A program made the translations under genes and the position numbers. The notes beneath the pieces were generated by a model. It ran no database searches. It was not told where the DNA came from and saw only the letters and a program-made list of their open reading frames with translations. DNA of 64,000 nt from the NCBI GenBank assembly GCA_937988745.1, contig CALKAR010000207.1, positions 3,394 through 67,393 on the forward strand, read 5' to 3'. Every line of letters starts with the position of its first letter. The first letter of the stretch is position 1. The stretch comes from an uncultured Peptococcaceae bacterium (GTDB lineage Bacteria; Bacillota; Limnochordia; Darwinibacteriales; Darwinibacteriaceae). This document shows positions 7,336-63,388 of the stretch, piece after piece.

Positions 7336-8040
7336 TCAATTAAGCAGTCCCAAAAAGTACTGGAAGTGACCAGTGAGCATTAAAACACCGATCAGCACCA
7401 GCAGTCCACCTGAGATGCGCTGGATGTACTTAAGATTCTGCTTGATAAAACCCAATACGCCCTGCAGCTTATGCCACAGAAGAGCCGTCAAAATGAAAGG
7501 TATACCTAGCCCTATTCCAAAAACAAACAGGAGCGCCATGCCCGCACGCAGTGTCTGCGTGTGAGATGCCAGCAGCAGTGCGGTTCCCAAAAACGCCCCG
7601 AGACATGGTGTCCATGCCACTGAGAAGGCTCCTCCAAAGACTAAGCTAGACACAAAACCTAAATCGGAGGTCTTGGCCTGCACACTGCTGCTGCGGTTTA
7701 ACAATCCAATTCGGATCAGCCCTAAGAAATTGAGGCCAAAGAGAATGACTACAATACCGCTGACCCTGATCAGTGCCTGTCGGTACTCAACCAACAGGCT
7801 GCCTATCGTAGAGGCCGTAGCTCCAAGAAGCACAAACACTACGGTAAATCCCAGCACAAAGCCTACTACATTCCGAAACAAGCGGCTTCGGTCTACCGTC
7901 TCTGGATCGCTGCCAGCCAGGTACATCAAGTAGACTGGCAGAAGAGGTAGAATGCACGGCGATAGGAAGGCCAAGAGGCCTTCGACAAAGATCAGGCCGA
8001 ATAAGGCTGGAGTCACCTCAGGTAGTGCCTGTGCAAACAT
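7336..8040 (-). CDS. ccdA: Cytochrome c biogenesis / thiol-disulfide electron transporter CcdA (DsbD family)
   Basis: It is a six-TM protein with LSPCILPLLPVYL and WTPCLGAFLG Cys motifs. Its ATG overlaps the stop of the upstream thioredoxin gene by 1 nt (TAATG). Confidence 0.85.
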   Translation of the reverse strand: MFAQALPEVTPALFGLIFVEGLLAFLSPCILPLLPVYLMYLAGSDPETVDRSRLFRNVVGFVLGFTVVFVLLGATASTIGSLLVEYRQALIRVSGIVVILFGLNFLGLIRIGLLNRSSSVQAKTSDLGFVSSLVFGGAFSVAWTPCLGAFLGTALLLASHTQTLRAGMALLFVFGIGLGIPFILTALLWHKLQGVLGFIKQNLKYIQRISGGLLVLIGVLMLTGHFQYFLGLLN

Positions 8041-8549
8041 TATTTTGCCTCCTCAATCAAGTGCTTAACCGCAGCATAACTAGCGGGGCCGATGATGTAG
8101 TTATCCATATAACCATCAGGATCAATTACAACGGTCACGGGAATTCCGGGAAGCCCGAATATCCGTCCCCCTACCGTTCCATCATCATGCAAGTTGAGGA
8201 ATGTAAAGCCGTTGTCCGTCAGATACTTCTCGCCGCTGGCGACGGTTTCCCTGAACCCATCGATCTGGTTCAGCATTAGAAGCACTGCCTCACCCGTTTC
8301 CTCCAGCTCCTCATGGAGTCTCTGGAAATCAGGCATTTCAGCCCGGCAGGGTGGACACCAGCTTGCCCAGAAGTTCAGGACCACTACCTTACCTGCATAG
8401 TCAGAGAGAGAGACTGGTTCACCACGGTTGGACATCAGTGTGAAGTTCGGTACCAGCGGCTTCTCCGTTTCGGCCGCAGCCTGATAAGGAAGTAGAACAA
8501 GCCCAACCAACAGGCAAATTCCCAGCACAATCCCGATATTCCACCTCAT
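8040..8549 (-). CDS. Membrane-anchored TlpA/ResA-like thiol-disulfide oxidoreductase
   Basis: It has an N-terminal anchor, MRWNIGIVLGICLLVGLVLLP. The thioredoxin motif is NFWASWCPPCRAEMP. Confidence 0.85.
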   Translation of the reverse strand: MRWNIGIVLGICLLVGLVLLPYQAAAETEKPLVPNFTLMSNRGEPVSLSDYAGKVVVLNFWASWCPPCRAEMPDFQRLHEELEETGEAVLLMLNQIDGFRETVASGEKYLTDNGFTFLNLHDDGTVGGRIFGLPGIPVTVVIDPDGYMDNYIIGPASYAAVKHLIEEAK

Positions 8550-8635
8550 CTGTACGCCCCCTTAATTATAAGTATCAAACTTCTTTTATGGGTATTTCTA
8601 CGGTCTTGATAAATTTCCTCCAAAATATAAAACGC

Positions 8636-8674
8636 TTGACAACGGATGTCTCTGTGATACATTATTTCTGTATC
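8636..8674 (+). promoter_or_regulatory. Candidate sigma-A promoter with an overlapping MarR-type operator upstream of marR-ftsH-cls
   Basis: The -35 is TTGACA (8636-8641). After a 16-nt spacer comes an extended -10, TGaTACATT (8655-8663). An inverted repeat GATACA-N7-TGTATC (8656-8674) overlaps the -10. Confidence 0.5.
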
Positions 8675-8696
8675 ATAAATATTATTGGAGGAAAAT

Positions 8697-14491: not shown

Positions 14492-16132
14492 TTAGCCCAA
14501 AAACAGCTCCAAGTCTCCTTCAACTGTGCTGATTGTTCCGATTCCAAACTGCTTGACAAGAACATCGGCCACATTAGGGGAAAGGAAAGCTGGTAGTGTT
14601 GGGCCAAGGTGGATGTTTTTCACACCCAGATATAAGAGGGCCAGTAGAACAATAACAGCCTTCTGCTCATACCAGGCAATGTTGTAAACAATTGGGAGCT
14701 CATTAATATCCTCGAGTCCGAAGACTTCTTTTAATTTCAAAGCAATCAGAGCTAATGAATAGGAGTCATTGCACTGTCCTGCATCCAGTACCCGCGGAAT
14801 TCCGCCAATATCACCCAAGGGAAGCTTGTTGTAGCGGTACTTGGCGCAGCCAGCAGTCAAGATAACAGTGTCTTCGGGAAGAGCCTCAGCAAATTCTGTG
14901 TAGTACGAGCGGCTCTTCATGCGGCCATCACAGCCTGCCATAACGAAGAATTTCTTAATGGCACCACTCTTTACCGCGTCGACAACCTGATCTGCCAGTG
15001 CGAAGACCTGCTCATGGGCAAATCCACCGACAATTGTGCCCGACTCTATTTCAGCAGGTGGTGGGCACTGTTTTGCCAGTTCAATGACTTCGCTGAAATC
15101 CTTCCAGCCGTCTTCGTCGGCTTCAATATGCTTGCAGCCCGGAAAGCCTGTGGCGCCACTCGTGAAGATGCGTTCCCTTACCTCTTCACTGCGAGGGGGC
15201 ACAATGCAGTTTGTGGTAAACACAATCGGGCCATTGAAAGACTCAAACTCGGTTACCTGCTGCCACCAAGCGTTACCGTAGTTTCCTGCAAAATGCTCAT
15301 ATTTCTTAAACGCTGGATAGTAGTGCGCCGGAAGCATTTCGCCGTGGGTATAAACGTCTACCCCTGTGCCTTCAGTCTGCTCCAAGAGCATTTCTAGATC
15401 CCGCAGGTCGTGACCGGAAATCAAAATCGCGGGGTTATTCCGCACACCGATGTTTACCTCGGAAATCTCAGGATTACCGTAAGTCTTTGTGTTAGCCTTA
15501 TCAAGGAGAGCCATGCCCTCAACACCAAACTTACCTGTCTCCAGGGTAAGCTGTGTAAGCTCATCGACAGTCAAGCTGTCATCTAAAGTAGCATTCAGCG
15601 CTTTATATATGAACCGATAAATGCCCTCATCTTCAAAACCTAGAACATAAGCATGGTGCAGATAAGCGGCCAAACCTTTGAGCCCGTAGGTAATCAATTC
15701 CCGCAGGGAACGAATGTCAGGATCAGAGGTAGCTAACACTCCTACAGTAAGGCCCTTTTCTTCCATCTCTTCCCGTGTTTCAACGGCAAATAGAGCTGCA
15801 TCGTGGAGGCCATCGGTATCTGCTCCATCAAGCAGATCATCTCTTACCGCCAATACATCTCTAATCTGTCTTTCTATGGCGGCATGATCAAAGTTAGCAT
15901 TGGTAATGGTCATAAAAAGGCTGTCAACCATCATCCGATGCAGTTCTAGACTGATTTCTTTGGTGCTGCGGCCTGACTCAACAATATTGGCGATGCCTTT
16001 GACGGCGTAGATCAAAAGATCCTGCAGGTTCGCCAGATCGGCATCCTTACCACATACACCTTTAATGGTACAGCCCGTTCCTCCCGCTGCTTCCTGGCAC
16101 TGGAAGCAGAACATGTTCATATTTGTACTCAT
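14492..16132 (-). CDS. hcp: Hybrid cluster protein / hydroxylamine reductase
   Basis: The N-terminal Cys cluster is [23 protein letters not shown], and the length is typical for Hcp. The start was moved to ATG 16132 ([11 protein letters not shown]), 6 nt after GAGGAGGAG. Confidence 0.95.
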
Positions 16133-16161
16133 TCCCAACTCCTCCTCACTCGAGACAATTA

Positions 16162-16178
16162 CTAAGTTACTCACTTAG
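16162..16178. promoter_or_regulatory. Palindrome CTAAGT-N5-ACTTAG in the hcp upstream region (candidate operator)
   Basis: It has perfect 6-bp arms and is centred 38 nt upstream of the hcp ATG. The regulator is unknown. Confidence 0.3.
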
Positions 16179-44744: not shown

Positions 44745-45269
44745 CTAATCCTGTCTAGGCGCGCAGTTCCAGCTCACCATTTCTTCGAATTCTCTGCGCG
44801 GCCGCGCTTTTTGCTCCTCCTCTGCTGGATAACCCATGGGAAGCAGCGCTACTACCTCTAAATGCTCTGGTAGTTCAAGGACTTTATGTGCGAGTTCTGC
44901 GTCAAATGCACATACCCAACAGGTTCCAAGGCCCAGTGCTGTGGCGGCCAGAGTCATATGGTCAACCGCAATAGCCACGTCGATGTCGCAGTGGTCTTTG
45001 CCATCAGCTCGCTTCCACGATAGACTGTGATCGCCGATAGCTGCGATAACAACCGGGGCCTTCTTGAACCAATCCCGCGAATACGCCTGAGAAATCCTCT
45101 CTTTCAGTTCAGGATCTGTTATCACAATAAAATGCCGAGGCTGATAGTTCACCGCCGAAGGTGAAACACGAGCAGCCTCTAATACCTGCATAATCTTTTC
45201 TTTTTCCACTGGGCGGTCGGCGAATTTCCGCACCGACCGTCTCTGTTTTAGTACTTCAAACAGCTCCAT
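44745..45269 (-). CDS. Nitroreductase-family FMN oxidoreductase
   Basis: The sequence is MELFEVLKQRRSVRKFADRPVEKEKI..VLEAARVSPSAVNYQP..F.V. The start was moved to ATG 45269 after GAGGAGG. Confidence 0.85.
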   Translation of the reverse strand: MELFEVLKQRRSVRKFADRPVEKEKIMQVLEAARVSPSAVNYQPRHFIVITDPELKERISQAYSRDWFKKAPVVIAAIGDHSLSWKRADGKDHCDIDVAIAVDHMTLAATALGLGTCWVCAFDAELAHKVLELPEHLEVVALLPMGYPAEEEQKARPRREFEEMVSWNCAPRQD

Positions 45270-45355
45270 CAACGAACCTCCTCTGCAGCACCAATTAGTG
45301 CCAAAATGTGGTTGTGCCAAATTTCTTCGCCTCATGAGGTATTATTCCTTCATAT

Positions 45356-45417: not shown

Positions 45418-45942
45418 TTACTCAGCGACCTTGGCAGCCTCGACAATAGCTCTCAGATAGCCGTCAGTGTCAACCAGGGTAGCGCCGGTTACAGTGTCAA
45501 CAAGGTCAGTCTTGCTGTAAGAAGCAAGAATGTTTTCCAGTTCGGCAATGGTCTTGCCTTCAGCGAAAGCTTCGATAGCTCTGAAGTTATCAGCGATGGA
45601 TACGGTGGAACCTGCTCTAGCCATGTTGTTGCTGTAGTAGTCGCTGTTAACCTTCTTGGAGGCCAAAACGCGCTCAGGGTTAGCAAAATCAGCAGCAAAA
45701 CCGTTGGCTACATCAGAGTTGGGAACACCAACTGCTTCAGCAGCAGGCAGGAACTGATACTCATCAATGTATGCACGAATGATTGTGTCGCCTTCAAGAA
45801 CAACAAAAGCAATAGTAAAGCATTTGTTGCCGTGAGCAGCCCATTCAACTTTACCAACCTTCAGATCAGCAGCCAGAGCGCTGGAAGCAAAAATGCCAAA
45901 TACGAGTACTGCAGCGAGTACAAGATTAAGAGCCTTTCTCAT
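45418..45942 (-). CDS. Secreted protein with a C-terminal FMN_bind-type flavinylation motif
   Basis: The signal peptide is MRKALNLVLAAVLVFGIFASSALA. The C-terminal DTVTGATLVDTDG matches the D..[ST]GA[TS] covalent FMN attachment motif. Confidence 0.6.
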   Translation of the reverse strand: MRKALNLVLAAVLVFGIFASSALAADLKVGKVEWAAHGNKCFTIAFVVLEGDTIIRAYIDEYQFLPAAEAVGVPNSDVANGFAADFANPERVLASKKVNSDYYSNNMARAGSTVSIADNFRAIEAFAEGKTIAELENILASYSKTDLVDTVTGATLVDTDGYLRAIVEAAKVAE

Positions 45943-46100: not shown

Positions 46101-47066
46101 TTATTGCCGCTCCAGCGACAGTTCCCTGATGATTTCACCGATGGTTTCAGCACTGCGCCGGAAAGCCCGCCGCTCCTCCTCACTAATGTTGAGCTCAATT
46201 AAGCGCTGTACTCCACGTCTGTTTAGAACAGCCGGCACTGACAAATAAAGATCAGAAACACCTAGGTGTCCATCCAACAGCGTTGAGACGGTAAGCACTG
46301 AGTTTTCATGCCGAAGAATCGTTTCACAGATTTCAACCAGTGCTAAACCAATGGCATAGTAGGTAGCCCGTTTCTTCTCAATGATGTGGTATGCAGCATC
46401 CCGCACCTGAGTAAAAATAGCGTCACGCTCGTCTTGATGACAGGCGCGCTCACAAGCAAGGCAGTATTGGTCGAATTTCATTCCAGCCACGTTCGCCAGG
46501 CTCCACAGAGGAACCTCGGTGTCGCCATGTTCACCCACAATATAGGCATGTACGTTTTTCACATCAACTCCACAGTGCTGACTGAGCAAAAAACGAAAGC
46601 GAGCAGTGTCAAGCACTGTACCTGAACCAATAACCTGATGGGCTGGCATTCCAGATAACTTGTAGGCGACATAAGCCATCACGTCGACCGGATTAGTTAC
46701 AATCAGCAGAATAGCTTCCTTAGTATACCGAGTGATTTCTGGGATAATCTGTTTGTATATTTCCACATTGCGGTGCACCAGGTCCAGCCGAGTTTCATCT
46801 GGCTTCTGCGCAGCACCTGCGGTTACGACCACGATATCTGCCCCAGTACAGTCCGCATAGGTCCCGGTCCGAATCTGCGCGGGTTGAGTAAAAGCCATAC
46901 CATGGTTCAAATCCATAGATTCACCTTCGGCCCGGTCTGCATTCTGGTCGATCAGCACGATTTCAGAACATACTCCTCTGATCATGAGCGCATAAGCGAA
47001 GGTCGCACCGACAAAACCGGTTCCTACTATTACTACTTTCCCCCGAGTTCTTGGGATATCAGTCAC
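46101..47066 (-). CDS. ldh: L-lactate dehydrogenase
   Basis: Motifs are KVVIVGTGFVGATFAYAL, DLNHG, VTAGA.QKPGETRLDL, GEHGD and RDAAY.IIE.KRATYYAIG. The start was moved to GTG 47066, 5 nt after AGGAGGG. Confidence 0.9.
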   Translation of the reverse strand: MTDIPRTRGKVVIVGTGFVGATFAYALMIRGVCSEIVLIDQNADRAEGESMDLNHGMAFTQPAQIRTGTYADCTGADIVVVTAGAAQKPDETRLDLVHRNVEIYKQIIPEITRYTKEAILLIVTNPVDVMAYVAYKLSGMPAHQVIGSGTVLDTARFRFLLSQHCGVDVKNVHAYIVGEHGDTEVPLWSLANVAGMKFDQYCLACERACHQDERDAIFTQVRDAAYHIIEKKRATYYAIGLALVEICETILRHENSVLTVSTLLDGHLGVSDLYLSVPAVLNRRGVQRLIELNISEEERRAFRRSAETIGEIIRELSLERQ

Positions 47067-47228
47067 CGGATTCCCTCCTAAAGTGTCTAAGTTAGCAATT
47101 CCTAAGTTTGTCACTAATGTTTTCTGCAAACGCTGAAAATTTCCTTCCTATCTGCCCAAAAGTAGGATTTAGCTGGGAGAACATAGAAGTAATTAGACAA
47201 AAACTCTGCTGCAAAGGGGAGTCTAGAC

Positions 47229-55969: not shown

Positions 55970-56077
55970 TGCCGATCTCCTCTCGGAGGCTGACACTTAC
56001 CTGTTCTAAAATTTTTCTGAGTACCGGTATCGTTTCAAGTTTATCAGATATTCATTGAAAAAGATAGACCAAAGATA

Positions 56078-56103
56078 AATCCCAGGCCGATTACCCTGGG
56101 ATT
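56078..56103 (-). terminator. Weak hairpin terminator overlapping the 3' end of the DUF4382 gene
   Basis: On the minus strand AATCCCAGG-N8-CCTGGGATT is followed by TATCTTTGG. The stop codon lies in the loop. Confidence 0.4.
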
Positions 56104-56945
56104 TCTTTGCTCCACAAATTAGAACCTGGTTCCACAATAATCTTTTCGGCCTCCAGCTCCCAATGGAATTGATCCTTATATCTAACAAATGCTGATACCT
56201 CGTATGTGCCGGGTAGGAGGCGTTCGAGAGAAAATTCCAAGATACCGTTTTCAAAAACCAGTTCGGCGAAGGGCCGTGCGACACCATTTCGTCTCACGGA
56301 GAAACCAACTGTTAGATCACCAAGCACTCCATCGAGTTCTTCCAGTATGAATCTGGGCAGCTCAAGGCGGAAATCCAGCGATCCGAGCAAGTCACCATCT
56401 AATATCTTCAGCACCTGCGCCGGGTTCACAATAAACCCATTTTCACCCCGGGCGACAAACTGAGCCGCGTTGATATCAAAGATGAGCTCCACAACTGTAT
56501 CAGCCTGAACGACTATATCCACGTTCTTTACCTGCAGCTTGCCGCTGGGTACTTTCAGCACTGCCTCGGTGCCATCCCTGAGCACAACATAGTTCGCTCC
56601 AGCATCCTCGTTTAGGACTAAGCGAAATTCACTGTAACGGCCGGCAGGAATGGACTTTTCAACGAGTAATTGAGCCTGTGCTTGCAGATCGAACAAATTG
56701 ACCTTGGCACCGCCGCTTAGTTTTGCGATTACTTCCCAGTGCCCATCACGCTTGGCTTCGATCCGATTAATCGTCACCCAAATCTCGTCAATCTGCGAGA
56801 CGTCAGCCTCGGCACTCAAGGGCATCAAGCCATGAGTATCAGCCATGTACAAGCCTACCGTAGCCGTTGGTGATCCGCCTGTTCCTCCAAGGCAGCCTGT
56901 GAAGAGAAAGGCAGCTAGGAACAGAGCTATCCATTTAAGCTTCAC
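56091..56945 (-). CDS. DUF4382-family lipoprotein
   Basis: The lipobox is LFTGC, within MKLKWIALFLAAFLFTGCLGG. The DUF4382-like pattern is VGLYMAD...IDEIWVTINRIEAKRDGHWEVI......VNLFDLQ...LLVEKSIPAGRYSEFRLVL.....VVLRDG....LKVPSG. The start is GTG 56945, 8 nt after GGGGAG. Confidence 0.65.
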   Translation of the reverse strand: MKLKWIALFLAAFLFTGCLGGTGGSPTATVGLYMADTHGLMPLSAEADVSQIDEIWVTINRIEAKRDGHWEVIAKLSGGAKVNLFDLQAQAQLLVEKSIPAGRYSEFRLVLNEDAGANYVVLRDGTEAVLKVPSGKLQVKNVDIVVQADTVVELIFDINAAQFVARGENGFIVNPAQVLKILDGDLLGSLDFRLELPRFILEELDGVLGDLTVGFSVRRNGVARPFAELVFENGILEFSLERLLPGTYEVSAFVRYKDQFHWELEAEKIIVEPGSNLWSKEIPG

Positions 56946-57043
56946 AACATACACTCCCCGCATTGTAAGATACCCTACAATATACGGTGGGAGACGGTGA
57001 AACATTAGAGCAGGTAAACAGAACAATAAGTGTTACTTTTTTC

Positions 57044-57193
57044 CTATTTGGTCTTAGGACCCGATGCTGCTACCGCCAATTCCTCCAATACCTCGAGCTG
57101 TTGTTCCAGTTTCTTCTGCTGGACGTGCACGTAGCCTGTATACCCTAGAAGCAGCAGCCATACAATGCTGTATCCGACTACAAAGTAGACCAT
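57044..57193 (-). CDS. ccmD: CcmD-like small membrane protein (49 aa), absent from the ORF track
   Basis: My translation is MVYFVVGYSIVWLLLLGYTGYVHVQQKKLEQQLEVLEELAVAASGPKTK. It is one TM helix plus a charged coiled tail. ATG 57193 lies 6 nt after GGGGAG, and the gene sits directly downstream of ccmC. Confidence 0.65.
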   Translation of the reverse strand: MVYFVVGYSIVWLLLLGYTGYVHVQQKKLEQQLEVLEELAVAASGPKTK

Positions 57194-57218
57194 ACTGTTC
57201 TCCCCTTTTGCACTGAGC

Positions 57219-57890
57219 TTAATAGACCAGATTTTCCTTTAGCGCTTCTATCCTCTTTCGCAGGCGCAGTACGCGCAGCCGCATTCCCATCAGATATGCG
57301 TACAGTGCTGAGAAAGTAATAATGCTAGCAAATAAAGCGGTTTTCATCCTAGGATCCAGATTCATTCCCTCGCTAGTTACGACAACAGGATGGATCGAGC
57401 GCCACCATCTCGCAGAATAAAAAACCAGCGGCACATTAACAAAAGCGATAATCCCATAAACGGCTGCAAACCGCCGCCTACTGTCTGACACTCCCCCGCC
57501 CTGCAGTGCGATATATGCCACATACATAAACCACAGAACAAGAGTGGTCGTAAGCCGTGGATCCCAAGTCCACCAGGTATTCCAAATCGGATAGGCCCAG
57601 ATAGGCCCTGTCAGAAGTGTGCAGCTTATAAACACTACGCCGATCTCTGCTGAAGCAACCGCCACTTGGTTTACTTCTTCGCTGCGGCGCCACAAGAAGA
57701 GAATGCTGCAGATGAACACCACCACAAATGCGAGCATCCCTATCCATGCGGAACCAACATGGAAATAGAATACCTTCTGCACCACGCCCATAGTGCGTTC
57801 GATAGGCGCGTAGATACCTATGATGTAAATATTAGCTAGAATCAATCCAGCAAGAACAAGAAAACCAACATTTCTCCGATCAAATTCCAT
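57219..57890 (-). CDS. ccmC: Haem exporter / haem-handling protein CcmC
   Basis: Motifs are FYFHVGSAW (His), the WWD motif WNTWWTWDPRLT, and the second His in ARWWRSIHP. Confidence 0.9.
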   Translation of the reverse strand: MEFDRRNVGFLVLAGLILANIYIIGIYAPIERTMGVVQKVFYFHVGSAWIGMLAFVVVFICSILFLWRRSEEVNQVAVASAEIGVVFISCTLLTGPIWAYPIWNTWWTWDPRLTTTLVLWFMYVAYIALQGGGVSDSRRRFAAVYGIIAFVNVPLVFYSARWWRSIHPVVVTSEGMNLDPRMKTALFASIITFSALYAYLMGMRLRVLRLRKRIEALKENLVY

Positions 57891-57892
57891 GT

Positions 57893-58573
57893 CTAGCCCT
57901 CCAACACAAACTCAAACATGATAAGGGGCAGCACTGTAAAGAGAAGGTCATAAGCCCCTAGAAAGTAGACCCATCCCAAGGCACTTCTTCCCACTCCCAT
58001 AAGTGCTGAGTCTGAACAGCGCACCACCCCGATAAACAGAGGTATCAAGAGAGGAAACATCAATATCGGCAGCAGCATCCTAGCGTTCGGGATCTGAACG
58101 GTCATGGCCGACAGCATAGTGCCCACAGACGCCAATCCCCAACTGCCCAGCACAAGAGCAGTCAGGAGAAGCCCGATGTTCGCTCCCGAACAAGAAACAT
58201 CTGAAAAGATCCAAAGTACAGGCAGAATGATCAATTCAAGGACCAAGAGAACCGTGAAGTTGACCAGCGTCTTCGCAGTAAAGATTATACCTTTATCGCC
58301 CACGGCAATTAATAGTGCATCAATCGCACTGTTTTCGTTTTCGCGCGTAAACGAACGCTGTACCGCAAGTACTGCTGCAAAAAAGATTGTCACCCACAGT
58401 ACTGCCGGTAGAACCCGGCTCGTATCCACGTCTGTAAGCTGAAAAGCAAAGCTTGTGATAAATACAAGCATGATCCCAAAAACGACGGTGGAGAGAAAGT
58501 CATCGAGTTGGCGCAGTTCCTGCTTAAGATCTCTGAAGTATATAACCTTAGTTTTTTGCATGTATCTTCTCAT
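57893..58573 (-). CDS. ccmB: Haem exporter membrane protein CcmB
   Basis: It is a six-TM protein between ccmA and ccmC. Its start overlaps ccmA by 4 nt. Confidence 0.8.
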   Translation of the reverse strand: MRRYMQKTKVIYFRDLKQELRQLDDFLSTVVFGIMLVFITSFAFQLTDVDTSRVLPAVLWVTIFFAAVLAVQRSFTRENENSAIDALLIAVGDKGIIFTAKTLVNFTVLLVLELIILPVLWIFSDVSCSGANIGLLLTALVLGSWGLASVGTMLSAMTVQIPNARMLLPILMFPLLIPLFIGVVRCSDSALMGVGRSALGWVYFLGAYDLLFTVLPLIMFEFVLEG

Positions 58574-59202
58574 CGCGCACCTCTCCGGTTGACCTTACCT
58601 TCCGCTAATTCTAAATGTTCGTAGCGAAGGTCACCCAACAGATGAGGGTCATGGCTCACCACAATCTGTAAAGTTCTTGAGCGCAGCTCGCTCAAAACAC
58701 TGCGCAGCAGCTCCTGACCGCTGAAATCAAGTCCGGTGAAGGGTTCATCATACAAAATCAGCTTGGGCTCAATTAGAAGTGCCCGAGCCAGTACTAGTCT
58801 CTGCTGCATTCCTCGGGATAGAATCTTCGCACGCTCATGCCGGAATATCCAAAGGTCCATCAGCCGTAAGAGATTTTCAATGCGTCCTAAAGGCTTATCA
58901 TACAGCTCAGCAAAAAACTGCATGTTTTCCAGCACTGTTAGACTTTCGTACAGCATCGGCTCATGAGCCACATAACTGATAGACCCATGTTCAATACTGT
59001 AGGGGGATCCATTCCACAAAACCTGACCGCTGGTCGGTCTACTTAACCCCGCCAGTATGCGCAGCATTGTGGTCTTACCCCCGCCGTTTGCACCAGTCAC
59101 CACGATCAAATCACCAGTCGCAGCACTGAATGAAACGTCACGCAGAACCATACGGCTTCCCAATCTCTTTGAGAGGTTCAAGACTTCAAGCCGATCCGAC
59201 AT
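58570..59202 (-). CDS. ccmA: Haem ABC exporter ATP-binding protein CcmA
   Basis: Motifs are Walker A GANGGGKTT, the signature LSRGMQQR and Walker B LILYDEP. It overlaps the ccmF end by 17 nt. Confidence 0.9.
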   Translation of the reverse strand: MSDRLEVLNLSKRLGSRMVLRDVSFSAATGDLIVVTGANGGGKTTMLRILAGLSRPTSGQVLWNGSPYSIEHGSISYVAHEPMLYESLTVLENMQFFAELYDKPLGRIENLLRLMDLWIFRHERAKILSRGMQQRLVLARALLIEPKLILYDEPFTGLDFSGQELLRSVLSELRSRTLQIVVSHDPHLLGDLRYEHLELAEGKVNRRGAR

Positions 59203-61042
59203 TTTTATCCCCCTTTAAAAGGAGAAGTACACCAAGAAATACAACTGCGGCACCGGCCCAAATCCAGCTCACAAAAGCCAAACGTTTGATGTGAAGCTGT
59301 GCCGTTTGACCCTGCCACCCAGCCAAGTTGAGGTATAAATCTTCAAAAGGCGTGCTGAAGATCCCAACCTCTGTATAAGGCTGATCATCTGTTCCATAAA
59401 AGGTCTTGGAAGATACTAATGTGCCTGCCTTTTCTCCTCCCCGCATAATTTGGAGCGCCGTCTGCACGTTGTAGTAGTCTACACCCCACTGCACTTGAAG
59501 CCCGGGATATTCTAAAGCGTATCCGCCAAACTCGATGGTTTCACCTGGTTCTACCGTACGATAGACCTCCTCTACAAATATGGAAGAGCCAGTGATGCCA
59601 ATCAGCATAACGATTATGCCAATGTGGACCACAATACCACCTACCTGGCGCATCTTTGGCTGCCTGAGGAGGGCAATAGCTTGGCCTGCCAGAGCCCAAC
59701 CTGCCGCGGTAAAGCTGATGCTGCCTAATAGATGGCCGCCGCTGGCCCGATATGAAACCACACCCGCTGTGAGTCCTAGAAGAAATCTACCGATAAACCT
59801 ACGCCTTTCTACAGCAGGATAAGCACCCATCAGGAATACTAGGATGATAAAAAGCGGCACTGAAATGGCGTTGAAGAAACCTTCATCAAGGATCACTTCA
59901 CGTTTTAAGAAAGTGCGGGAGATTAAAGGGAACATCGTTCCCAGAAATACACCAGCAAAGATCAACATGAGGAGAATGATATTGACAAACAAGAACGCGG
60001 CTCTTCTTTGTCCATCTGCAGTGCGAGAAGCGGCTCCCAGAAGAACTCTCCGCCGGCTAATTCCGAGCCCAATAATGAAAATCGCCATGATGAGCAGCGC
60101 ACCGAGGAACACATTCCCCATTGTCTCATTAGAAAAGGCATGGACTGAATCAAGTACACCGCTGCGCGTTAGGTAGGTTCCAAAGATGGTCAGCAAGAAT
60201 GTGATTCCCGCCAGGCTGTAAGAGAGAAGTTCCTTTCCATAGAAATCATTTGGAACAAGCATTGCATGCAGGAACGCGGTAGCTGTCAGCCAAGGGAAGA
60301 GAGAGGCATTTTCCACCGGATCCCAAGCCCAATATCCACCCCATCCCAGTTCGTTATAGGCCCACCACCCTCCAGTGACGATGCCCAGTGTGAGCATGCC
60401 CCAGGCAAAAAGCGCCCAAGAGCGGCACTGCTTCATCCAAGTACCGTGTCCGGGGCTCCATATAAGCTCAGCAGCAGCTAAGGCAATCGGAATTAGACAA
60501 CCGCTGAAACCTAGGAAGAGAATGGGTGGATGGACGATCATCCCCACGCTCTGGAGCATGGGGTTAAGACCTGCCCCATCCCTAGGAATGGGATGAGTGG
60601 CCGCAAAAGGCTGAGACAAAAACAGCAGGATCACAGTGAACAGCACCCGCACTGTGTTGATCATTATATTGAGCTTAATATCCAAATGACCAGTCCGATA
60701 CTTTTTCGCTCCGTGTATATACCATAGAAACAGCGAAATAATCAGGTGCCACAGCAAGAGAGATCCTGCCTGGCCAGCCCAAAAAGCGCTGATTTTATAA
60801 ATAAGCGGCAGACTCCGCTGTGAAGAGCGAGCCACGTAAGCCAAACTGAAATTATCTGTCACGAACGCTATCATCAGAAGGCCTGCGGCAGCAGTGATGC
60901 TCCAAATAGAGACAAGGGACAACCATCGGCTCTGTCTCGATAGTACTTCTTTCTGCTTGTTGATGCCCCAAATGCCGAATAGGATTGCTCCAGAACCCGA
61001 AAAAAAGGTCAGCCACAGAAGGGCTGATCCAACGATGCTCAT
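59186..61042 (-). CDS. ccmF: Cytochrome c haem lyase subunit CcmF
   Basis: It is a 618-aa polytopic protein with the WWD motif WGGYWAWDPVENASLFPWL. Confidence 0.9.
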   Translation of the reverse strand: MSIVGSALLWLTFFSGSGAILFGIWGINKQKEVLSRQSRWLSLVSIWSITAAAGLLMIAFVTDNFSLAYVARSSQRSLPLIYKISAFWAGQAGSLLLWHLIISLFLWYIHGAKKYRTGHLDIKLNIMINTVRVLFTVILLFLSQPFAATHPIPRDGAGLNPMLQSVGMIVHPPILFLGFSGCLIPIALAAAELIWSPGHGTWMKQCRSWALFAWGMLTLGIVTGGWWAYNELGWGGYWAWDPVENASLFPWLTATAFLHAMLVPNDFYGKELLSYSLAGITFLLTIFGTYLTRSGVLDSVHAFSNETMGNVFLGALLIMAIFIIGLGISRRRVLLGAASRTADGQRRAAFLFVNIILLMLIFAGVFLGTMFPLISRTFLKREVILDEGFFNAISVPLFIILVFLMGAYPAVERRRFIGRFLLGLTAGVVSYRASGGHLLGSISFTAAGWALAGQAIALLRQPKMRQVGGIVVHIGIIVMLIGITGSSIFVEEVYRTVEPGETIEFGGYALEYPGLQVQWGVDYYNVQTALQIMRGGEKAGTLVSSKTFYGTDDQPYTEVGIFSTPFEDLYLNLAGWQGQTAQLHIKRLAFVSWIWAGAAVVFLGVLLLLKGDKNVGSA

Positions 61043-61045
61043 ACT

Positions 61046-61429
61046 CTATTCCCCTTCATATTTCGATGGACACTGCAGCATAAGCTTATTGGCGGAAAGG
61101 CCCGCCTCAGATAGAACACCTTCCAAAATGACCTCTTGAGCATGACTGAAGTTATCCGGTATCACACCCTGGTATCTGACGGGAAGTTCCGAATCCCCAT
61201 CAGACAGAGAGAAGCTCAGGAGGGGTTTTTGAGGGTCGTAGACTACAGTATCTTGGAGTACTTCACCCTTAATCCGGATTTTTTGACCATTCATTTGCAA
61301 CGAAGCTGCTTCTGAGATGGTGTAATAATAGACCGCCGCATTTTCAAGAGCCTGGAACGCCAAGAAACCGAGAAGCAGCATGGCACATACAGATGCGGCA
61401 ATAACTACAGGCTTCTTTCTCATCAGCAT
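61046..61429 (-). CDS. ccmE: Haem chaperone CcmE, variant with CxxxY (CPSKY) in place of HxxxY
   Basis: It has an N-terminal anchor, the OB-fold pattern IRIKGEV......YDP....L.F.L.D.......V.Y.G.IPD.F....EVILEG.L, and the C-terminal LMLQCPSKYEGE (codons 61058-61072). The start may be the third codon, ATG 61423, which has better RBS spacing. Confidence 0.85.
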   Translation of the reverse strand: MLMRKKPVVIAASVCAMLLLGFLAFQALENAAVYYYTISEAASLQMNGQKIRIKGEVLQDTVVYDPQKPLLSFSLSDGDSELPVRYQGVIPDNFSHAQEVILEGVLSEAGLSANKLMLQCPSKYEGE

Positions 61430-61461
61430 GACCCCCTATTGTCATGACGATAAACACGAGA

Positions 61462-61490
61462 GAGGAAAGTGCCTCAAAAGCACTTTCCTC
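61462..61490 (-). terminator. Intercistronic hairpin between the dihaem protein gene and ccmE (partial terminator or mRNA stabiliser)
   Basis: An 11-bp perfect stem pairs GAGGAAAGTGC with GCACTTTCCTC around a 7-nt loop. On the minus strand a weak U-tract, TCTCGTGTTTAT, follows. Confidence 0.45.
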
Positions 61491-61500
61491 AGCTCTATAA

Positions 61501-62247
61501 TTAATGACCCTCGTGGCAGGGCGCGCAGTCCATCTTGCCGATGGTGTCATCTGCGTAGCCGCCTACGTGACATTCGTAGCAAGCCTTTGTCTCTTCACTC
61601 ATGGCTATGGTTGGTACAAATGTACCAGCTAAAACTTCGTTCATGTAAAGAGCTGTCTGTGCTGCCACATCACCAGTGAGAGCTCCGCAGCGTGGTCCCC
61701 GCTGACTGGCTTTCAAGCCAGAAGCCTTAACCCAGCGAGAAATAGAAACATGACACAAGGGAGAATCCGCGACGCTCTGCACTTCAGCGTTGAGCGGCAG
61801 AGGAGTCTGAGAATACCAGCCCATGACTTCATTAATAATAGCTGTCGCCTGCTGACTGCGGCCAAATACAAGGCCAACCGCCGCGGCGGCACCGTTTAAT
61901 GCACCACAAAGAGAACCCCAACCGGCAACGCCAGCTTTGCCAAAGTTCATCATCTCAGCCGGGATGTAGCAGAAAGGTTCACCTAATTCGGTAGTAAGGG
62001 CCCGGAAAGCAGCCTCACAGCAGCCCTGACCTTCACCGAAGAACTGGACACCAAGTTCCCTCACCTTTTCTACGTCCAAAGGCTTGTCAAAATACTCAAC
62101 CCAAGGATACTCAGGAAGTTCACGTCCTGCTGCTCCTGCCTTAGGTGCTAAAACCCCTAATCCCGAGCTAGCCAAAGCCAAACCGGCAGCCGCTCCACCT
62201 GCACTTACCAAGAACTCACGACGACTGATACGCTTCTTGTTATCCAT
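61501..62247 (-). CDS. Twin-arginine-signal, C_GCAxxG_C_C-type Cys-rich protein with two C-terminal CXXCH haem c sites (split-Soret cytochrome c-like)
   Basis: The Tat signal is MDNKKRISRREFLVSAGGAAAGLALASSGLGVLAPKAGAA. The Cys motifs are GQGCCEAAF, SLCGALNGA, PLCHVS and PRCGALTGD. The last 30 residues carry CYECH and CAPCH. At 248 aa it is close to the roughly 247 residues I recall for the Desulfovibrio desulfuricans split-Soret cytochrome. Confidence 0.7.
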   Translation of the reverse strand: MDNKKRISRREFLVSAGGAAAGLALASSGLGVLAPKAGAAGRELPEYPWVEYFDKPLDVEKVRELGVQFFGEGQGCCEAAFRALTTELGEPFCYIPAEMMNFGKAGVAGWGSLCGALNGAAAAVGLVFGRSQQATAIINEVMGWYSQTPLPLNAEVQSVADSPLCHVSISRWVKASGLKASQRGPRCGALTGDVAAQTALYMNEVLAGTFVPTIAMSEETKACYECHVGGYADDTIGKMDCAPCHEGH

Positions 62248-62296
62248 GTAGACTGTCCCTCCTTAGATTTCGATCCCTGAAGCACTCTGCACAGAA

Positions 62297-63043
62297 CTAC
62301 TGCTTCTTATCCTTTTTTCTAACCACCACCTTTCCCAAGAGGATGCTGAGCTCATACAACAGGAGCATCGGCCCAGCCATCAGCGTTTGAGAAATCACAT
62401 CAGGTGGCGTAAAAATTGCTGCAGCAACAAAAACCCCAAGAATTATGAACCTGCGATAGCGAATCAGCGTCTGCGGCGTCAGGATGCCTGCCCAGCAGAG
62501 CAGAACTACCACTAACGGCATTTGAAAGACTACACCAAAAGGCAGAATAATTCCTAAAACAAAGGACACATAGCTGCCAATAGAAATGACAGGCTGCAGT
62601 GTTCCACTGCCAAAACTCATAAAAAAACGGTAAGCTATTGGGACAATCACCTGATAGGCAAAGACTACGCCCCCTGCAAACATCAGGGCTGCAAAAGGAA
62701 TGCCAACAAACAGTGCCCACTTTTCCACATCATTTAAAGCTGGTGTAACAAAACCCACCAACTGGTACAGGATTACAGGCGATGCTGCTGCCAATCCGAA
62801 GACAAGAGCCAATTTAAGGTGAACAAAAAAGGCCTCGCCTGGATACAAGTACACCAGCGGACCTGGAAGTTCTGCTATGTACGCTACTATCCGGTCAGAT
62901 AAATAAAAGCCAACTACCACGGCAATAGCAACAGCCAGCAGCGTAATAATGATTCTCCGCCGCAGCTCAGTAAGGTGTTCTACCAAAGTCATGTCAGACT
63001 GTTGGTTCGCTTTTCTGCGCAACCTCTGGAGCATATCCACCAA
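62297..63043 (-). CDS. tatC: Sec-independent translocase subunit TatC
   Basis: The sequence is MTLVEHLTELRRRII.. followed by six TM segments (..FLSPGL-like, ..TPPDVISQ..). The exact start is uncertain: GTG 63043, ATG 63034 or ATG 62992. Confidence 0.9.
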   Translation of the reverse strand: MVDMLQRLRRKANQQSDMTLVEHLTELRRRIIITLLAVAIAVVVGFYLSDRIVAYIAELPGPLVYLYPGEAFFVHLKLALVFGLAAASPVILYQLVGFVTPALNDVEKWALFVGIPFAALMFAGGVVFAYQVIVPIAYRFFMSFGSGTLQPVISIGSYVSFVLGIILPFGVVFQMPLVVVLLCWAGILTPQTLIRYRRFIILGVFVAAAIFTPPDVISQTLMAGPMLLLYELSILLGKVVVRKKDKKQ

Positions 63044-63064
63044 CCTATCAAGACTGCGTTATTG

Positions 63065-63241
63065 TTATTCCTTGTTAGAAGCTTCTGAAGGGGAATCATC
63101 TGTAATTCCCTTGGCGGCGTCTCTAAATTCCCTCATCGCATTACCCACCGCTTTACCCATTTCAGGCAGCTTCGATGGCCCGAAAACAAGCAGGGCGATG
63201 ATCAGGATAACGACTAATTCGCCAAATCCAATTCTACCCAA
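63065..63241 (-). CDS. tatA: Sec-independent translocase subunit TatA/E
   Basis: MGRIGFGELVVILIIALLVFGPSKLPEMGKAVGNAMREFRDA has the canonical TatA N-terminus. The start was moved from the track ATG 63277 to TTG 63241, 8 nt after GGGAGG. Confidence 0.85.
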   Translation of the reverse strand: MGRIGFGELVVILIIALLVFGPSKLPEMGKAVGNAMREFRDAAKGITDDSPSEASNKE

Positions 63242-63388
63242 CTGTATTTCCTCCCTTGTGATCGTTTTATCATTCACATATTAAATTACCACTAATTAAC
63301 ATGCAAGTCAAGGAAATGCCCAGCTGTTCTGATTTTTGCAGGGTTCTTTCTTTTTGCGGAGAACTTACCGAAAACAGGAGGGGATCAT

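What the first reader, a model, noticed from the sequence alone, without database searches (positions are those of the whole stretch)
56091..63241. One-strand cassette joining TatAC, a Tat-signal dihaem protein, a variant System I (ccmEFABCD) and a DUF4382 lipoprotein
Ten minus-strand genes are tightly packed. The junctions are a 21-nt gap, a 49-nt gap, a 71-nt gap, a 3-nt gap, a 17-nt overlap, a 4-nt overlap, a 2-nt gap, a 25-nt gap and a 98-nt gap. A minimal TatA/TatC translocase sits directly upstream of an apparent Tat cargo, a twin-arginine protein with two C-terminal CXXCH sites. That cargo sits directly upstream of a complete haem-delivery machinery in the order E-F-A-B-C-D. As far as I recall, three features here match the natural variant System I characterised in Desulfovibrio desulfuricans and predicted in archaea: this gene order, the absence of ccmH and ccmG, and a CxxxY CcmE. 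The rest of the window looks Bacillota-like, and in that group System II (ResBC/CcsBA) is the norm. I do not know of a self-contained export, cargo and maturation cassette being described as a functional unit. It also raises the question of what the terminal lipoprotein does.
Basis: partly seen in the sequence, partly recalled or inferred. Interest (0 to 1): 0.75.

Follow-up and report, generated by a model that had tools for sequence, protein, structure and literature searches.

The report
Tat, cytochrome and haem-attachment gene cassette
An uncultured biogas-reactor bacterium keeps, in one conserved nine-gene block, a small iron-sulfur/two-haem protein together with the export machine and the haem-attachment machine that protein should need, which offers a compact system for testing how such a doubly matured protein is made.

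Summary
Ten co-oriented minus-strand genes lie at 56091-63241: tatA, tatC, a split-Soret-type cytochrome c (Ssc), ccmE (CPSKY), ccmF, ccmA, ccmB, ccmC, ccmD and a DUF4382 lipoprotein.

The first nine genes form a conserved unit. All 14 related species genomes found keep them colinear, although the flanking genes differ. These genomes are biogas-digester Bacillota, including 'Ca. Darwinibacter acetoxidans' of the MBA03 lineage. All share a promoter upstream of tatA and a covarying 13-bp hairpin between ssc and ccmE.

DUF4382 is not conserved and is not part of the unit.

In other lineages ssc independently sits beside tat genes, beside System II genes (resB-ccsA) or beside archaeal ccm genes. 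This supports a two-step maturation: Tat exports the FeS-loaded domain, then haem is attached outside the membrane.

- The nearest CcmF relatives with a source name outside the clade are Halanaerobiales, so nothing points to recent transfer from Desulfovibrio.
- A CcdA plus TlpA/ResA-like pair lies 48 kb away, so "no CcmG function" is unproven.

Each pairwise link has precedents (phoD-tatAdCd, nrfA-nrfEFG). I found no description of the triple combination. Whether Ssc is the only client could not be tested.

Verdict: new variant of known kinds, moderate interest.

The parts
63283..63311 (-). Promoter upstream of tatA: -35 TTGACT (63311-63306), 14 nt, then an extended -10 TGGTAATTT (63291-63283).
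   Evidence: The pattern TTGAC[AT]-N14-TG[GA]TAnnnT occurs at the same distance upstream of tatA in all 13 related loci that have upstream sequence, and in the window. The simple promoter scan missed it because the -10 hexamer is weak.
63065..63241 (-). tatA, 58 aa, with a TTG start preceded by a GGGAGG ribosome-binding site at 63255-63250.
   Evidence: PF02416 at 1.5e-20; NF011430 at 84.2 bits against a cutoff of 62. Public gene calls give the same 58-aa product. RBS shown.
62297..63043 (-). tatC
   Evidence: PF00902 at 7e-62; TIGR00945 at 201 bits against a cutoff of 132.7.
61501..62247 (-). ssc, the split-Soret-type cargo. It has a twin-arginine signal (SRREFL, likely cleaved near A39/A40), a C_GCAxxG_C_C domain with four invariant Cys (76, 114, 165, 187), and a C-terminal tail carrying CYECH (223) and CAPCH (241).
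   Evidence: PF09719 at 50.7 bits. NF047622 'split-Soret cytochrome c' at 145.8 bits, below its equivalog cutoff of 400. PDB 1H21 by sequence at E=1.3e-29. Foldseek finds 1H21 as the only significant hit, E=1.6e-10. Invariant residues come from a 27-sequence alignment.
61462..61490 (-). Conserved stem-loop between ssc and ccmE. It is the probable leaky intrinsic terminator or attenuator, or a 3' stabiliser of the tatAC-ssc message.
   Evidence: It is present at the same junction in all 15 loci. 95% of cells are paired, six pairs show compensatory changes, and 0 of 500 shuffles reach the observed score. It is unique in the window and has no Rfam match. A covariance model finds it only at this junction in 540 kb.
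61046..61429 (-). ccmE, a membrane-anchored haem chaperone with the CPSKY motif (Cys120) in place of HxxxY.
   Evidence: PF03100 at 85.9 bits. The C-terminal sequence KLM[LFT]QCPSKYE is kept in all relatives. It matches the D. vulgaris CcmE structure 2KCT.
59186..61042 (-). ccmF, the haem lyase, with HPP at residue 171 and WGGYWAWDP at residue 234.
   Evidence: PF01578 plus PF16327. Motifs shown.
58570..59202 (-). ccmA, the ABC ATPase.
   Evidence: TIGR01189 at 144.8 bits against a cutoff of 131.6.
57893..58573 (-). ccmB
   Evidence: PF03379 at 100.4 bits.
57219..57890 (-). ccmC, with FHV at residue 43, WTWDP at 107 and IHP at 166.
   Evidence: PF01578. TIGR01191 at 131.6 bits, below its cutoff of 186. 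Motifs shown.
57044..57193 (-). ccmD (alternative family), 49 aa.
   Evidence: TIGR04391 at 33.2 bits against a cutoff of 24. Homologues follow ccmC in the relatives.
56091..56945 (-). DUF4382 lipoprotein. It is adjacent and co-oriented but is not a conserved member of the cassette.
   Evidence: PF14321 at 68.4 bits. The lipobox is FTGC, and the GTG start has a GGGGAG ribosome-binding site. No homologue is found in any related species locus.
56077..56104 (-). Terminator-like hairpin overlapping the DUF4382 stop codon.
   Evidence: Ten base pairs, five of them G-C.
7336..8549 (-). Possible accessory genes 48 kb from the cassette: a secreted TlpA/ResA-like thioredoxin (8040-8549, WCPPC motif) overlapping the start of a CcdA/DsbD_TM protein (7336-8040). 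Together they are a candidate thiol-reducing (CcmG-like) pathway.
   Evidence: AhpC-TSA/Redoxin, and DsbD_TM at 69 bits. TlpA, ResA and StoA models hit below their cutoffs. The pair is not linked to the cassette in relatives.

Best explanation
This is a conserved, largely self-contained biogenesis operon for one periplasmic redox protein, a distant split-Soret cytochrome c (Ssc) homologue. It is a hallmark of a clade of uncultured biogas-digester Bacillota that includes 'Ca. Darwinibacter acetoxidans' (order Darwinibacteriales, formerly MBA03).

Transcription:
- A conserved sigma-70-type promoter with an extended -10 drives tatA-tatC-ssc.
- A conserved hairpin right after ssc stops or stabilises most transcripts.
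- Read-through past the hairpin supplies lower amounts of ccmEFABCD.

Maturation of the protein:
- The Ssc precursor folds its N-terminal C_GCAxxG_C_C domain in the cytoplasm and receives an iron-sulfur cluster on four invariant cysteines.
- The minimal TatAC translocase exports it through its twin-arginine signal.
- Its roughly 30-residue C-terminal tail carries two CXXCH motifs. That tail receives two haems on the outer face of the membrane.
- The haem path is CcmABCD loading haem onto Cys120 of CcmE, then CcmF acting as lyase without CcmH. A separately encoded CcdA/TlpA-like pair may keep the cysteines reduced.
- The protein then probably dimerises into the stacked-haem form.

What is shown:
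- Gene content and protein family membership.
- Conservation of order, promoter and hairpin.
- Independent linkage of ssc to Tat genes and to haem-ligation genes in other lineages.

What is inferred:
- Co-transcription with attenuation.
- The sequential Tat-then-Ccm order.
- The presence of the FeS cluster.
- Exclusivity of the machinery for Ssc.
- The physiological role, which is probably low-potential periplasmic electron transfer.
For: Gene identities rest.

Conservation in relatives:
- All 14 species loci with Ssc at 63% identity or more keep tatA-tatC-ssc-ccmE-F-A-B-C-D colinear.
- The genes on either side differ between loci.

Transcription signals:
- The promoter upstream of tatA is conserved.
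- The hairpin is conserved with compensatory changes and is specific to this junction.
- In the window about 30 nt lie between the hairpin and the ccmE start, and the relatives have similarly short gaps. The simple scan finds no promoter-like site there.

Protein features:
- R9 and the four Cys are invariant, and R10 is at least 90% conserved, across 27 diverse Ssc homologues.
- In the AlphaFold model the core (residues 41-215) has block-mean pLDDT mostly 86-98, with one dip to 62 around residues 101-110. The CXXCH tail falls to 37-59.

Independent linkages of ssc elsewhere:
- Rectinema subterraneum and a Spirochaetia MAG: ssc-resB-ccsA.
- A Spirochaetaceae MAG: tatC divergent from ssc-resB.
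- An Archaeoglobales MAG: ccmC-E-A-(B)-ssc.
- 'Ca. Acetocimmeria': ssc-tatA-tatC.

A comparison case: a more distant ccmEFABCD operon sits behind Sec-type multihaem clients and has no tat genes.

Scans for other clients: Ssc is the only ORF with both CXXCH and a signal peptide in the 64-kb window and in 224 kb of clade loci.

Published work already predicts Tat signals on archaeal Ssc proteins.
Against: - No expression data were available.
- In some relatives (L023, L025) the hairpin is followed by a full T-run. It may therefore terminate efficiently there, and ccm may have a promoter inside ssc.
- Whole genomes could not be scanned. Other cytochromes c, other Tat substrates, a second Tat system, System II, or ccmG/ccmH elsewhere are not excluded.
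- Two other RR-like signals appear in clade flanks (L007 18247, L016 1800).
- The Ssc match to the Desulfovibrio equivalog model is far below its cutoff (145.8 against 400 bits).
- Haem and FeS content are unproven.
- Tat export of a protein with an unfolded tail is assumed, not shown.
- Neighbourhoods of distant ssc genes show no conserved redox partner, so the function stays open.
Confidence: 0.65

Rival explanations
1. The link is historical and not dedicated. TatAC and CcmEFABCD are the cell's general Tat and System I machineries and serve several clients. They merely sit beside ssc because an ancestral operon was inherited intact.
For: - Only one Tat locus and one ccm locus are seen, which is what a general system would also look like.
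- The same ccmEFABCD order occurs without any adjacent cytochrome in L094.
- Two further RR-like signal peptides occur in clade flanks.
- Whole genomes could not be inspected.
Against: - Flanking genes differ among the loci while the nine genes stay colinear across Ssc identities of 63-91%.
- ssc has become linked to Tat genes and to either type of haem-ligation system independently in Spirochaetia, Archaeoglobales and another lineage.
- No other CXXCH protein with a signal peptide was found in about 290 kb sampled from the clade.
- The order's metabolic reconstruction paper lists no cytochrome-dependent complexes.
Confidence: 0.25
2. There are two separate transcription units that are merely adjacent. 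tatAC-ssc ends at an efficient terminator, and ccmEFABCD is expressed from its own promoter within the 3' end of ssc.
For: - The hairpin is a strong G+C-rich stem.
- In L023 and L025 a run of 6-8 T follows it.
- A marginal hit of the hairpin model lies just after ssc in an unrelated Bacillota genome (L067, E=0.14), where there is no ccm gene downstream.
Against: - The window's T-tract is interrupted (TCTCGTGTTT).
- In the window about 30 nt separate the hairpin from the ccmE start, and the relatives have similarly short gaps.
- No promoter-like site is found on the minus strand in the 3' part of ssc.
- The stem sequence is more conserved than a plain terminator needs.
- The gene order is invariant.
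Confidence: 0.2
3. The cassette is a recently acquired island, transferred from Desulfovibrionales or archaea into a Bacillota genome that otherwise uses System II.
For: - The CxxxY CcmE and the absence of CcmH are best known from Desulfovibrio and archaea.
- Ssc was first described in D. desulfuricans.
Against: - GC content of the cassette (0.47-0.50) matches the rest of the window.
- The cassette is present in all 14 related species found.
- After unnamed metagenomic proteins, the best CcmF matches outside the clade that carry a source name are Halothermothrix (41%) and Selenihalanaerobacter (37%), not Desulfovibrio. No tree was built.
- Ssc is only 33% identical to the Desulfovibrio protein.
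Confidence: 0.05
4. The twin-arginine motif is vestigial. Ssc is exported unfolded by Sec like ordinary cytochromes c, carries no FeS cluster, and the tat genes are unrelated neighbours.
For: - Classical c-type cytochromes are Sec substrates.
- The Pfam TAT_signal match is below its threshold (17.5 against 22.7 bits).
Against: - R9 is invariant and R10 at least 90% conserved, within an S/T-R-R-x-F-L context, across 27 homologues from many phyla.
- The four Cys that align with Cys in the 1H21 structure (whose title names a novel iron centre) are also invariant.
- tat genes are repeatedly adjacent to ssc in unrelated lineages.
- The comparison cassette with Sec-type cytochromes has no tat genes.
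Confidence: 0.05

Closest known systems
Split-Soret cytochrome c of Desulfovibrio desulfuricans ATCC 27774 (PDB 1H21; NCBIfam NF047622)
   Same: - It has the same domain plan: a twin-arginine signal, a C_GCAxxG_C_C domain with four conserved Cys, and two C-terminal CXXCH motifs.
- 1H21 is the only significant sequence match (E=1.3e-29) and the only significant fold match (E=1.6e-10) in the PDB.
   Different: - Identity is only about 33%, and the score is far below the equivalog cutoff (145.8 against 400 bits).
- The protein is shorter, because it lacks loop insertions seen in most homologues.
- Here the gene is embedded between tatAC and ccm genes. Whether that is also true in Desulfovibrio was not examined.
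[quoted passage not shown]
   Same: - CcmE carries CPSKY.
- CcmA, CcmB, CcmC, CcmD and CcmF are all present.
- No CcmH-like ORF is found in the cassette or the window.
- CcmD is present, as in the bacterial form of the variant.
   Different: - The host is a clade of Bacillota, and the nearest CcmF relatives with a source name are Halanaerobiales.
- The operon is fused behind a client gene and its Tat translocase.
- A CcdA/TlpA-like pair elsewhere in the window may supply the CcmG-type function.
Cytochrome genes in operons with dedicated haem lyases: E. coli nrfA-nrfEFG, Wolinella nrfHAIJ (NrfI), and CcsA1 for the CX15CH haem site (PMC12285233). Also haloarchaeal thiosulfate dehydrogenase homologues arranged with ccm genes (PMC4429474).
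   Same: A c-type cytochrome gene is kept beside the genes that attach its haem.
   Different: - In the nrf and Wolinella cases the linked lyase is an extra paralogue specialised for a non-standard motif. Here the motifs are standard CXXCH.
- Here the whole haem-delivery pathway (CcmABCDE plus CcmF) is linked, and so is the protein-export machine.
Substrate-linked minimal TatAC systems of Bacillota, such as phoD-tatAd-tatCd in Bacillus subtilis (PMC3827258)
   Same: A two-component TatA/TatC translocase is encoded in the same operon as a twin-arginine cargo.
   Different: - Here the cargo gene lies downstream of tatAC.
- The cargo needs a second, extracytoplasmic cofactor step, and that machinery is encoded in the same block.

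Membership tests
Split-Soret cytochrome c (Ssc) | C_GCAxxG_C_C domain with four conserved cysteines (candidate FeS ligands) | tested here: met
   PF09719 scores 50.7 bits against a cutoff of 27. C76, C114, C165 and C187 are invariant in 27 homologues and align with Cys in 1H21.
Split-Soret cytochrome c (Ssc) | Two CXXCH haem-binding motifs near the C-terminus | tested here: met
   CYECH at residue 223 and CAPCH at residue 241, both invariant.
Split-Soret cytochrome c (Ssc) | Twin-arginine signal peptide | tested here: met
   The motif is SRREFL followed by a hydrophobic stretch. R9 is invariant and R10 is at least 90% conserved. The Pfam TAT_signal match is sub-threshold.
Split-Soret cytochrome c (Ssc) | Score above the NCBIfam equivalog cutoff for NF047622 | tested here: not met
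   145.8 bits against a cutoff of 400. It is a distant family member, not an equivalog of the Desulfovibrio protein.
Split-Soret cytochrome c (Ssc) | The same three-dimensional fold as 1H21 | tested here: met
   Foldseek gives E=1.6e-10, probability 1.00 and TM about 0.6, with no other significant hit.
Split-Soret cytochrome c (Ssc) | Split Soret band, stacked haems in a dimer, and an iron-sulfur centre | not testable with these tools
   This needs purified protein, UV-visible spectroscopy and EPR.
Variant System I (CxxxY CcmE, no CcmH) | CcmE with Cys replacing the haem-binding His (CxxxY) | tested here: met
   CPSKY at residue 120, conserved in all relatives.
Variant System I (CxxxY CcmE, no CcmH) | CcmA, CcmB, CcmC (WWD motif), CcmD and CcmF (WWD motif plus periplasmic His) all present | tested here: met
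   CcmA and CcmD-alt score above their NCBIfam cutoffs. CcmB, CcmC and CcmF score above their Pfam cutoffs.
Variant System I (CxxxY CcmE, no CcmH) | No CcmH | tested here: inconclusive
   No LRCxxC ORF and no CcmH profile hit in the cassette or the 64-kb window.
Variant System I (CxxxY CcmE, no CcmH) | No CcmG or dedicated thiol-reduction partner | tested here: inconclusive
   None is in the cassette. However, a secreted TlpA/ResA-like thioredoxin plus a CcdA protein lie at 7336-8549.
Variant System I (CxxxY CcmE, no CcmH) | Haem actually attached to a client protein by this gene set | not testable with these tools
   This needs heterologous expression and haem staining.
Minimal TatAC translocase | One TatA-family protein and one TatC, with no TatB | tested here: met
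   TatA and TatC score above curated cutoffs. There is only one TatA-family gene in the cassette. A TatB elsewhere in the genome cannot be excluded.
Minimal TatAC translocase | Transports the adjacent twin-arginine cargo | not testable with these tools
   This is inferred from conserved adjacency and from independent ssc-tat linkages in other lineages.

The most novel reading that the evidence does not exclude
In this clade the entire Tat system and the entire cytochrome c maturation system exist to make a single protein. Ssc would be the only Tat substrate and the only c-type cytochrome of these otherwise fermentative or syntrophic bacteria. It would also be the extracytoplasmic electron outlet behind the long-suspected, molecularly unexplained interspecies electron transfer of the MBA03 group in biogas reactors.
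Probability: 0.15. Interest if true: 0.75.

Novelty: new variant of a known kind. Interest (0 to 1): 0.5.

Why it matters
How is a protein matured when it needs a cofactor inserted in the cytoplasm, which calls for Tat export of a folded domain, and also covalent haem attached outside the membrane, which is normally done on unfolded Sec substrates? I found no experimental study of this question.

Here evolution has packed the cargo, the exporter and the whole haem-delivery pathway into about 6.3 kb. Other lineages have independently linked the same cargo to Tat genes and to System II. This gives comparative evidence that both pathways act on one polypeptide. It also gives a small cassette that could be moved into a host lacking tat and ccm to test the order of events.

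The cassette is also the first specific c-type cytochrome module pointed out for the MBA03/Darwinibacteriales group. That group is abundant in industrial anaerobic digesters and is repeatedly proposed to exchange electrons with methanogens, but the proposal rests on correlations only.

Tried and rejected
1. DUF4382 as a conserved terminal member was rejected. tblastn finds it in no related species locus, and the genes downstream of ccmD vary.

2. I suspected the 174-aa secreted protein that replaces DUF4382 in six loci was an FMN-binding redox partner, because of a TGAT motif. This was not supported:
- No Pfam, NCBIfam or PDB sequence hit.
- The AlphaFold model is confident (pLDDT 90.6), but its best PDB fold match is ISCU at E=1.6e-3 and TM 0.34, which is unconvincing.

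3. The hairpin as a dispersed repeat or a known RNA family was rejected.

4. Looking for a conserved redox partner around 66 distant ssc genes gave only regulators (MarR, sigma-54 activators, histidine kinases) and scattered ArsC/ArsR, SufC-like and YeeE genes.

5. A genome-wide census of cytochromes, Tat substrates and System II genes was not possible. The MBA03 paper has no held supplements and does not mention cytochromes.

6. Fetching the Halothermothrix orenii CcmF locus failed, because the protein is not on record by exact sequence.

7. One literature search was mis-specified and returned nothing useful.

8. Abreu et al. 2003, on the Ssc iron centre, is not held. The identity of the FeS ligands therefore rests on alignment and invariance only.

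Full report
**1. The observation**

The ORF table shows ten co-oriented minus-strand ORFs between 56091 and 63277.

Profile searches identify the genes:
- TatA: PF02416; NF011430 above cutoff.
- TatC: TIGR00945, 201 bits against 132.7.
- A 248-aa protein with a C_GCAxxG_C_C domain: PF09719, 50.7 bits.
- CcmE: PF03100.
- CcmF: PF01578 plus PF16327.
- CcmA: TIGR01189 above cutoff.
- CcmB: PF03379.
- CcmC: PF01578.
- An alternative-family CcmD: TIGR04391 above cutoff.
- A DUF4382 protein: PF14321.

The expected motifs are present:
- CcmE has CPSKY at residue 120.
- CcmF has HPP and WGGYWAWDP.
- CcmC has FHV, WTWDP and IHP.
- The cargo has RREF at residue 9 and CXXCH at residues 223 and 241.

The tatA TTG start at 63241 and the DUF4382 GTG start at 56945 both have good ribosome-binding sites.

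**2. The cargo**

The 248-aa protein matches the split-Soret cytochrome c of Desulfovibrio desulfuricans (PDB 1H21) at E=1.3e-29. It matches the NCBIfam model for that protein at 145.8 bits, well below the equivalog cutoff of 400.

An alignment of 27 homologues from many phyla shows these residues to be invariant: R9, four Cys (76, 114, 165, 187) and both CXXCH motifs. R10 is at least 90% conserved.

An AlphaFold model built on that alignment is confident for most of the core (residues 41-215; block-mean pLDDT mostly 86-98, with a dip to 62 around residues 101-110). It is poor for the signal peptide and for the CXXCH tail, where pLDDT falls to 37-59. The only significant PDB fold match is 1H21, at E=1.6e-10.

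So this is a distant member of the Ssc family and not an equivalog. Published work already predicts Tat signals on archaeal Ssc proteins.

**3. Host and conservation**

The identical Ssc protein occurs on many metagenomic contigs with the same neighbours.

A scan of one genome per species with the Ssc alignment returned 80 loci. tblastn of the ten window proteins against them gave a clean split.
- All 14 loci with Ssc at 63% identity or more keep tatA-tatC-ssc-ccmE-F-A-B-C colinear on one strand. ccmD was found after a closer look in the two loci where tblastn had missed it.
- Two of the 14 loci are cut short by contig ends. The other 12 hold all nine genes.
- None of the 66 loci with Ssc at 34-46% identity has the full set.

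The 14 genomes are biogas-digester MAGs. They include 'Peptococcaceae bacterium 1109' and 'Ca. Darwinibacter acetoxidans', which belongs to Ca. Darwinibacteriales, formerly MBA03. The placement of the window's own organism in that order is inferred from these relatives; no marker-gene classification was done.

The genes on either side of the cassette differ between loci. The paper describing the order mentions neither cytochromes, ccm nor Tat.

One paper refers to the "MBA03 group of Limnochordia". It cites Taib et al. 2020 for outer-membrane markers in all 46 uncultivated Limnochordia genomes analysed, and reports a double-membrane envelope by electron microscopy in two new isolates. If that applies here, a periplasm is plausible. 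NCBI files the order under Clostridia, and I did not test envelope type.

**4. Regulatory anatomy**

Upstream of tatA, every locus with sequence there has TTGAC[AT]-N14-TG[GA]TAnnnT. In the window these are the -35 at 63311-63306 and the extended -10 at 63291-63283.

Between ssc and ccmE every locus has a strong stem-loop.
- On a 15-sequence alignment a 13-bp helix is 95% paired.
- Six pairs show changes on both sides.
- No shuffle out of 500 reaches the observed covariation.
- The element is unique in the window and matches no Rfam family.
- A covariance model built from it finds it only at this junction in 540 kb.

In the window about 30 nt separate the hairpin from the ccmE start, and the relatives have similarly short gaps. 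The promoter scan finds nothing on that strand in the 3' part of ssc.

I infer one operon with an internal leaky terminator or attenuator. This would give more tatAC-ssc message than ccm message. A full T-run follows the hairpin in L023 and L025, so a two-unit reading stays open.

**5. Independent linkages elsewhere**

Among the distant ssc loci, Pfam-checked neighbours show the following:
- Rectinema subterraneum (L056): ssc followed by ResB and CcsA.
- A Spirochaetia MAG (L078): ssc followed by ResB and CcsA.
- A Spirochaetaceae MAG (L036): TatC divergent from ssc, which is followed by ResB.
- An Archaeoglobales MAG (L072): ccmC, CcmE, CcmA and a CcmB-like ORF followed by ssc.
- 'Ca. Acetocimmeria' (L048): ssc followed by TatA and a TatC fragment, with a full TatC 3 kb upstream.

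A more distant ccmEFABCD operon (L092, CcmF 42% identical) is preceded by three genes: a small monohaem protein, a cytochrome with about nine haem motifs, and a rhodanese with an N-terminal hydrophobic signal-like sequence. It has no tat genes.

So ssc has repeatedly become a neighbour of Tat genes and of whichever haem-ligation system the lineage uses. In the one comparison cassette whose clients lack RR signals, tat genes are absent. This is the best comparative support for a two-step maturation of one polypeptide.

**6.

- DUF4382 has no homologue in any related species locus.
- In six loci (five distinct species, since L007 and L024 are identical there) ccmD is followed by an unrelated 174-aa secreted protein. 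Its window homologue lies at 45418-45942. In the other relatives the downstream genes are assorted.
- A secreted TlpA/ResA-like thioredoxin (8040-8549, WCPPC) overlaps the start of a CcdA/DsbD_TM gene (7336-8040) in this window. A CcmG-like thiol-reducing function therefore cannot be called absent.
- After unnamed metagenomic proteins at 38-69% identity, the best CcmF matches that carry a source name are Halothermothrix orenii (41%) and Selenihalanaerobacter (37%). These belong to Halanaerobiales. No tree was built.
- GC content is even across the window. Nothing points to a recent transfer from Desulfovibrio or archaea.

**7. Is the machinery dedicated?**

In the 64-kb window and in 224 kb of clade loci, Ssc is the only ORF with both CXXCH and a signal peptide. 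Only two other weak RR-like signals appear. That is about a tenth of one genome's worth of sequence, so it is suggestive only. A whole-genome census was not possible with the caps available.

**8. Comparison with what is known**

- CxxxY CcmE systems without CcmH are established in archaea and D. desulfuricans.
- Cytochromes encoded with dedicated lyases are known: nrfA-nrfEFG, NrfI and CcsA1.
- Haloarchaeal thiosulfate dehydrogenase homologues lie in operon-like arrangements with ccm genes.
- TatAC pairs encoded with their cargo are known in Bacillota, for example phoD-tatAdCd.

What I did not find described is the combination of exporter, cargo and complete haem-delivery pathway in one conserved operon, or its occurrence in this order.

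**9. Verdict**

The finding is real and conserved. It is best read as a biogenesis operon for one FeS/dihaem protein. It is a new variant of known kinds. Its function remains open.

Interest is moderate, at 0.5. It makes the dual-pathway maturation question testable with a small cassette. It also gives the MBA03 group its first concrete cytochrome module.

Noticed in passing
window 7336-9146: A secreted TlpA/ResA-like thioredoxin (8040-8549, WCPPC) is translationally coupled to a CcdA/DsbD_TM protein (7336-8040). A MarR regulator (8685-9146) is transcribed divergently from them. This is a classic extracytoplasmic thiol-reduction pair and could serve cytochrome c maturation. MarR genes also sit directly upstream of ssc in 11 distant loci.
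   Followed up: partly
window 45418-45942 (minus strand); L007 15375-15899; L010 15446-15970: A 174-aa secreted protein with no Pfam, NCBIfam or PDB match follows ccmD in six related loci (five distinct species). In the window it lies 10 kb away, between a nitroreductase (44745-45335) and a lactate/malate dehydrogenase (46101-47129). Its family has about 155 unannotated Bacillota members. The AlphaFold model is confident (pLDDT 90.6), but only a weak IscU/SufU-like fold match was found (TM 0.34).
   Followed up: yes
window 61462-61490 and the same junction in L007-L025: The hairpin stem is conserved in sequence (GGAAAGCG / CGCTTTCC), not only in pairing, across genomes whose proteins are 45-70% identical. 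That is more than a plain terminator needs, so a protein-binding or RNA-processing role is possible.
   Followed up: partly
L016, L018, L020, L021, about 5-30 nt upstream of the tatA -35 element: A CRP/FNR-like palindrome (TGTnA-N6-TCACA, seen as TTTCACAAAA) precedes the promoter in four relatives. The window and L012 instead have CCTGCAAA-type repeats. This hints at lineage-specific redox or stress regulation.
   Followed up: no
L092 4312-10954: A more distant ccmEFABCD operon (also with CPSKY CcmE) is preceded by three genes: a 66-aa monohaem protein, a 328-aa cytochrome with about nine CXXCH motifs, and a rhodanese with an N-terminal hydrophobic signal-like sequence. A [NiFe] hydrogenase lies downstream. 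This is another client-plus-maturation cassette, and it has no tat genes.
   Followed up: partly
L036 1677-5054; L056 8748-11666; L078 3059-5943: In Spirochaetia, ssc is followed by the System II genes resB and ccsA. In L036 it is also flanked by a divergent tatC. This is a convergent export-cargo-ligation cluster built with System II.
   Followed up: yes
L072 1-2991: An Archaeoglobales MAG has ccmC, ccmE, ccmA and a ccmB-like ORF immediately upstream of a Tat-signal ssc gene. Its CcmE ends in CPSKE, not CPSKY.
   Followed up: partly
window 14492-16174: A hybrid cluster protein (Prismane family, 601 bits) lies in the same window. In D. desulfuricans both ssc and hcp respond to nitric oxide. 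No link was tested here.
   Followed up: no
L025 11584-14505: In 'Ca. Darwinibacter acetoxidans', a putative lipoprotein and two large ORFs lie about 1.5 kb downstream of the cassette. By eye they look like Rnf-complex genes, but they were not checked against profiles.
   Followed up: no
L026-L091 (distant ssc loci): In Ignavibacteria and Bacteroidota, ssc is usually flanked by sigma-54 activators (16 loci), histidine kinases (14 loci) and MarR regulators (11 loci). It is not flanked by respiratory genes. This suggests a regulated, possibly stress-related role in those phyla.
   Followed up: partly
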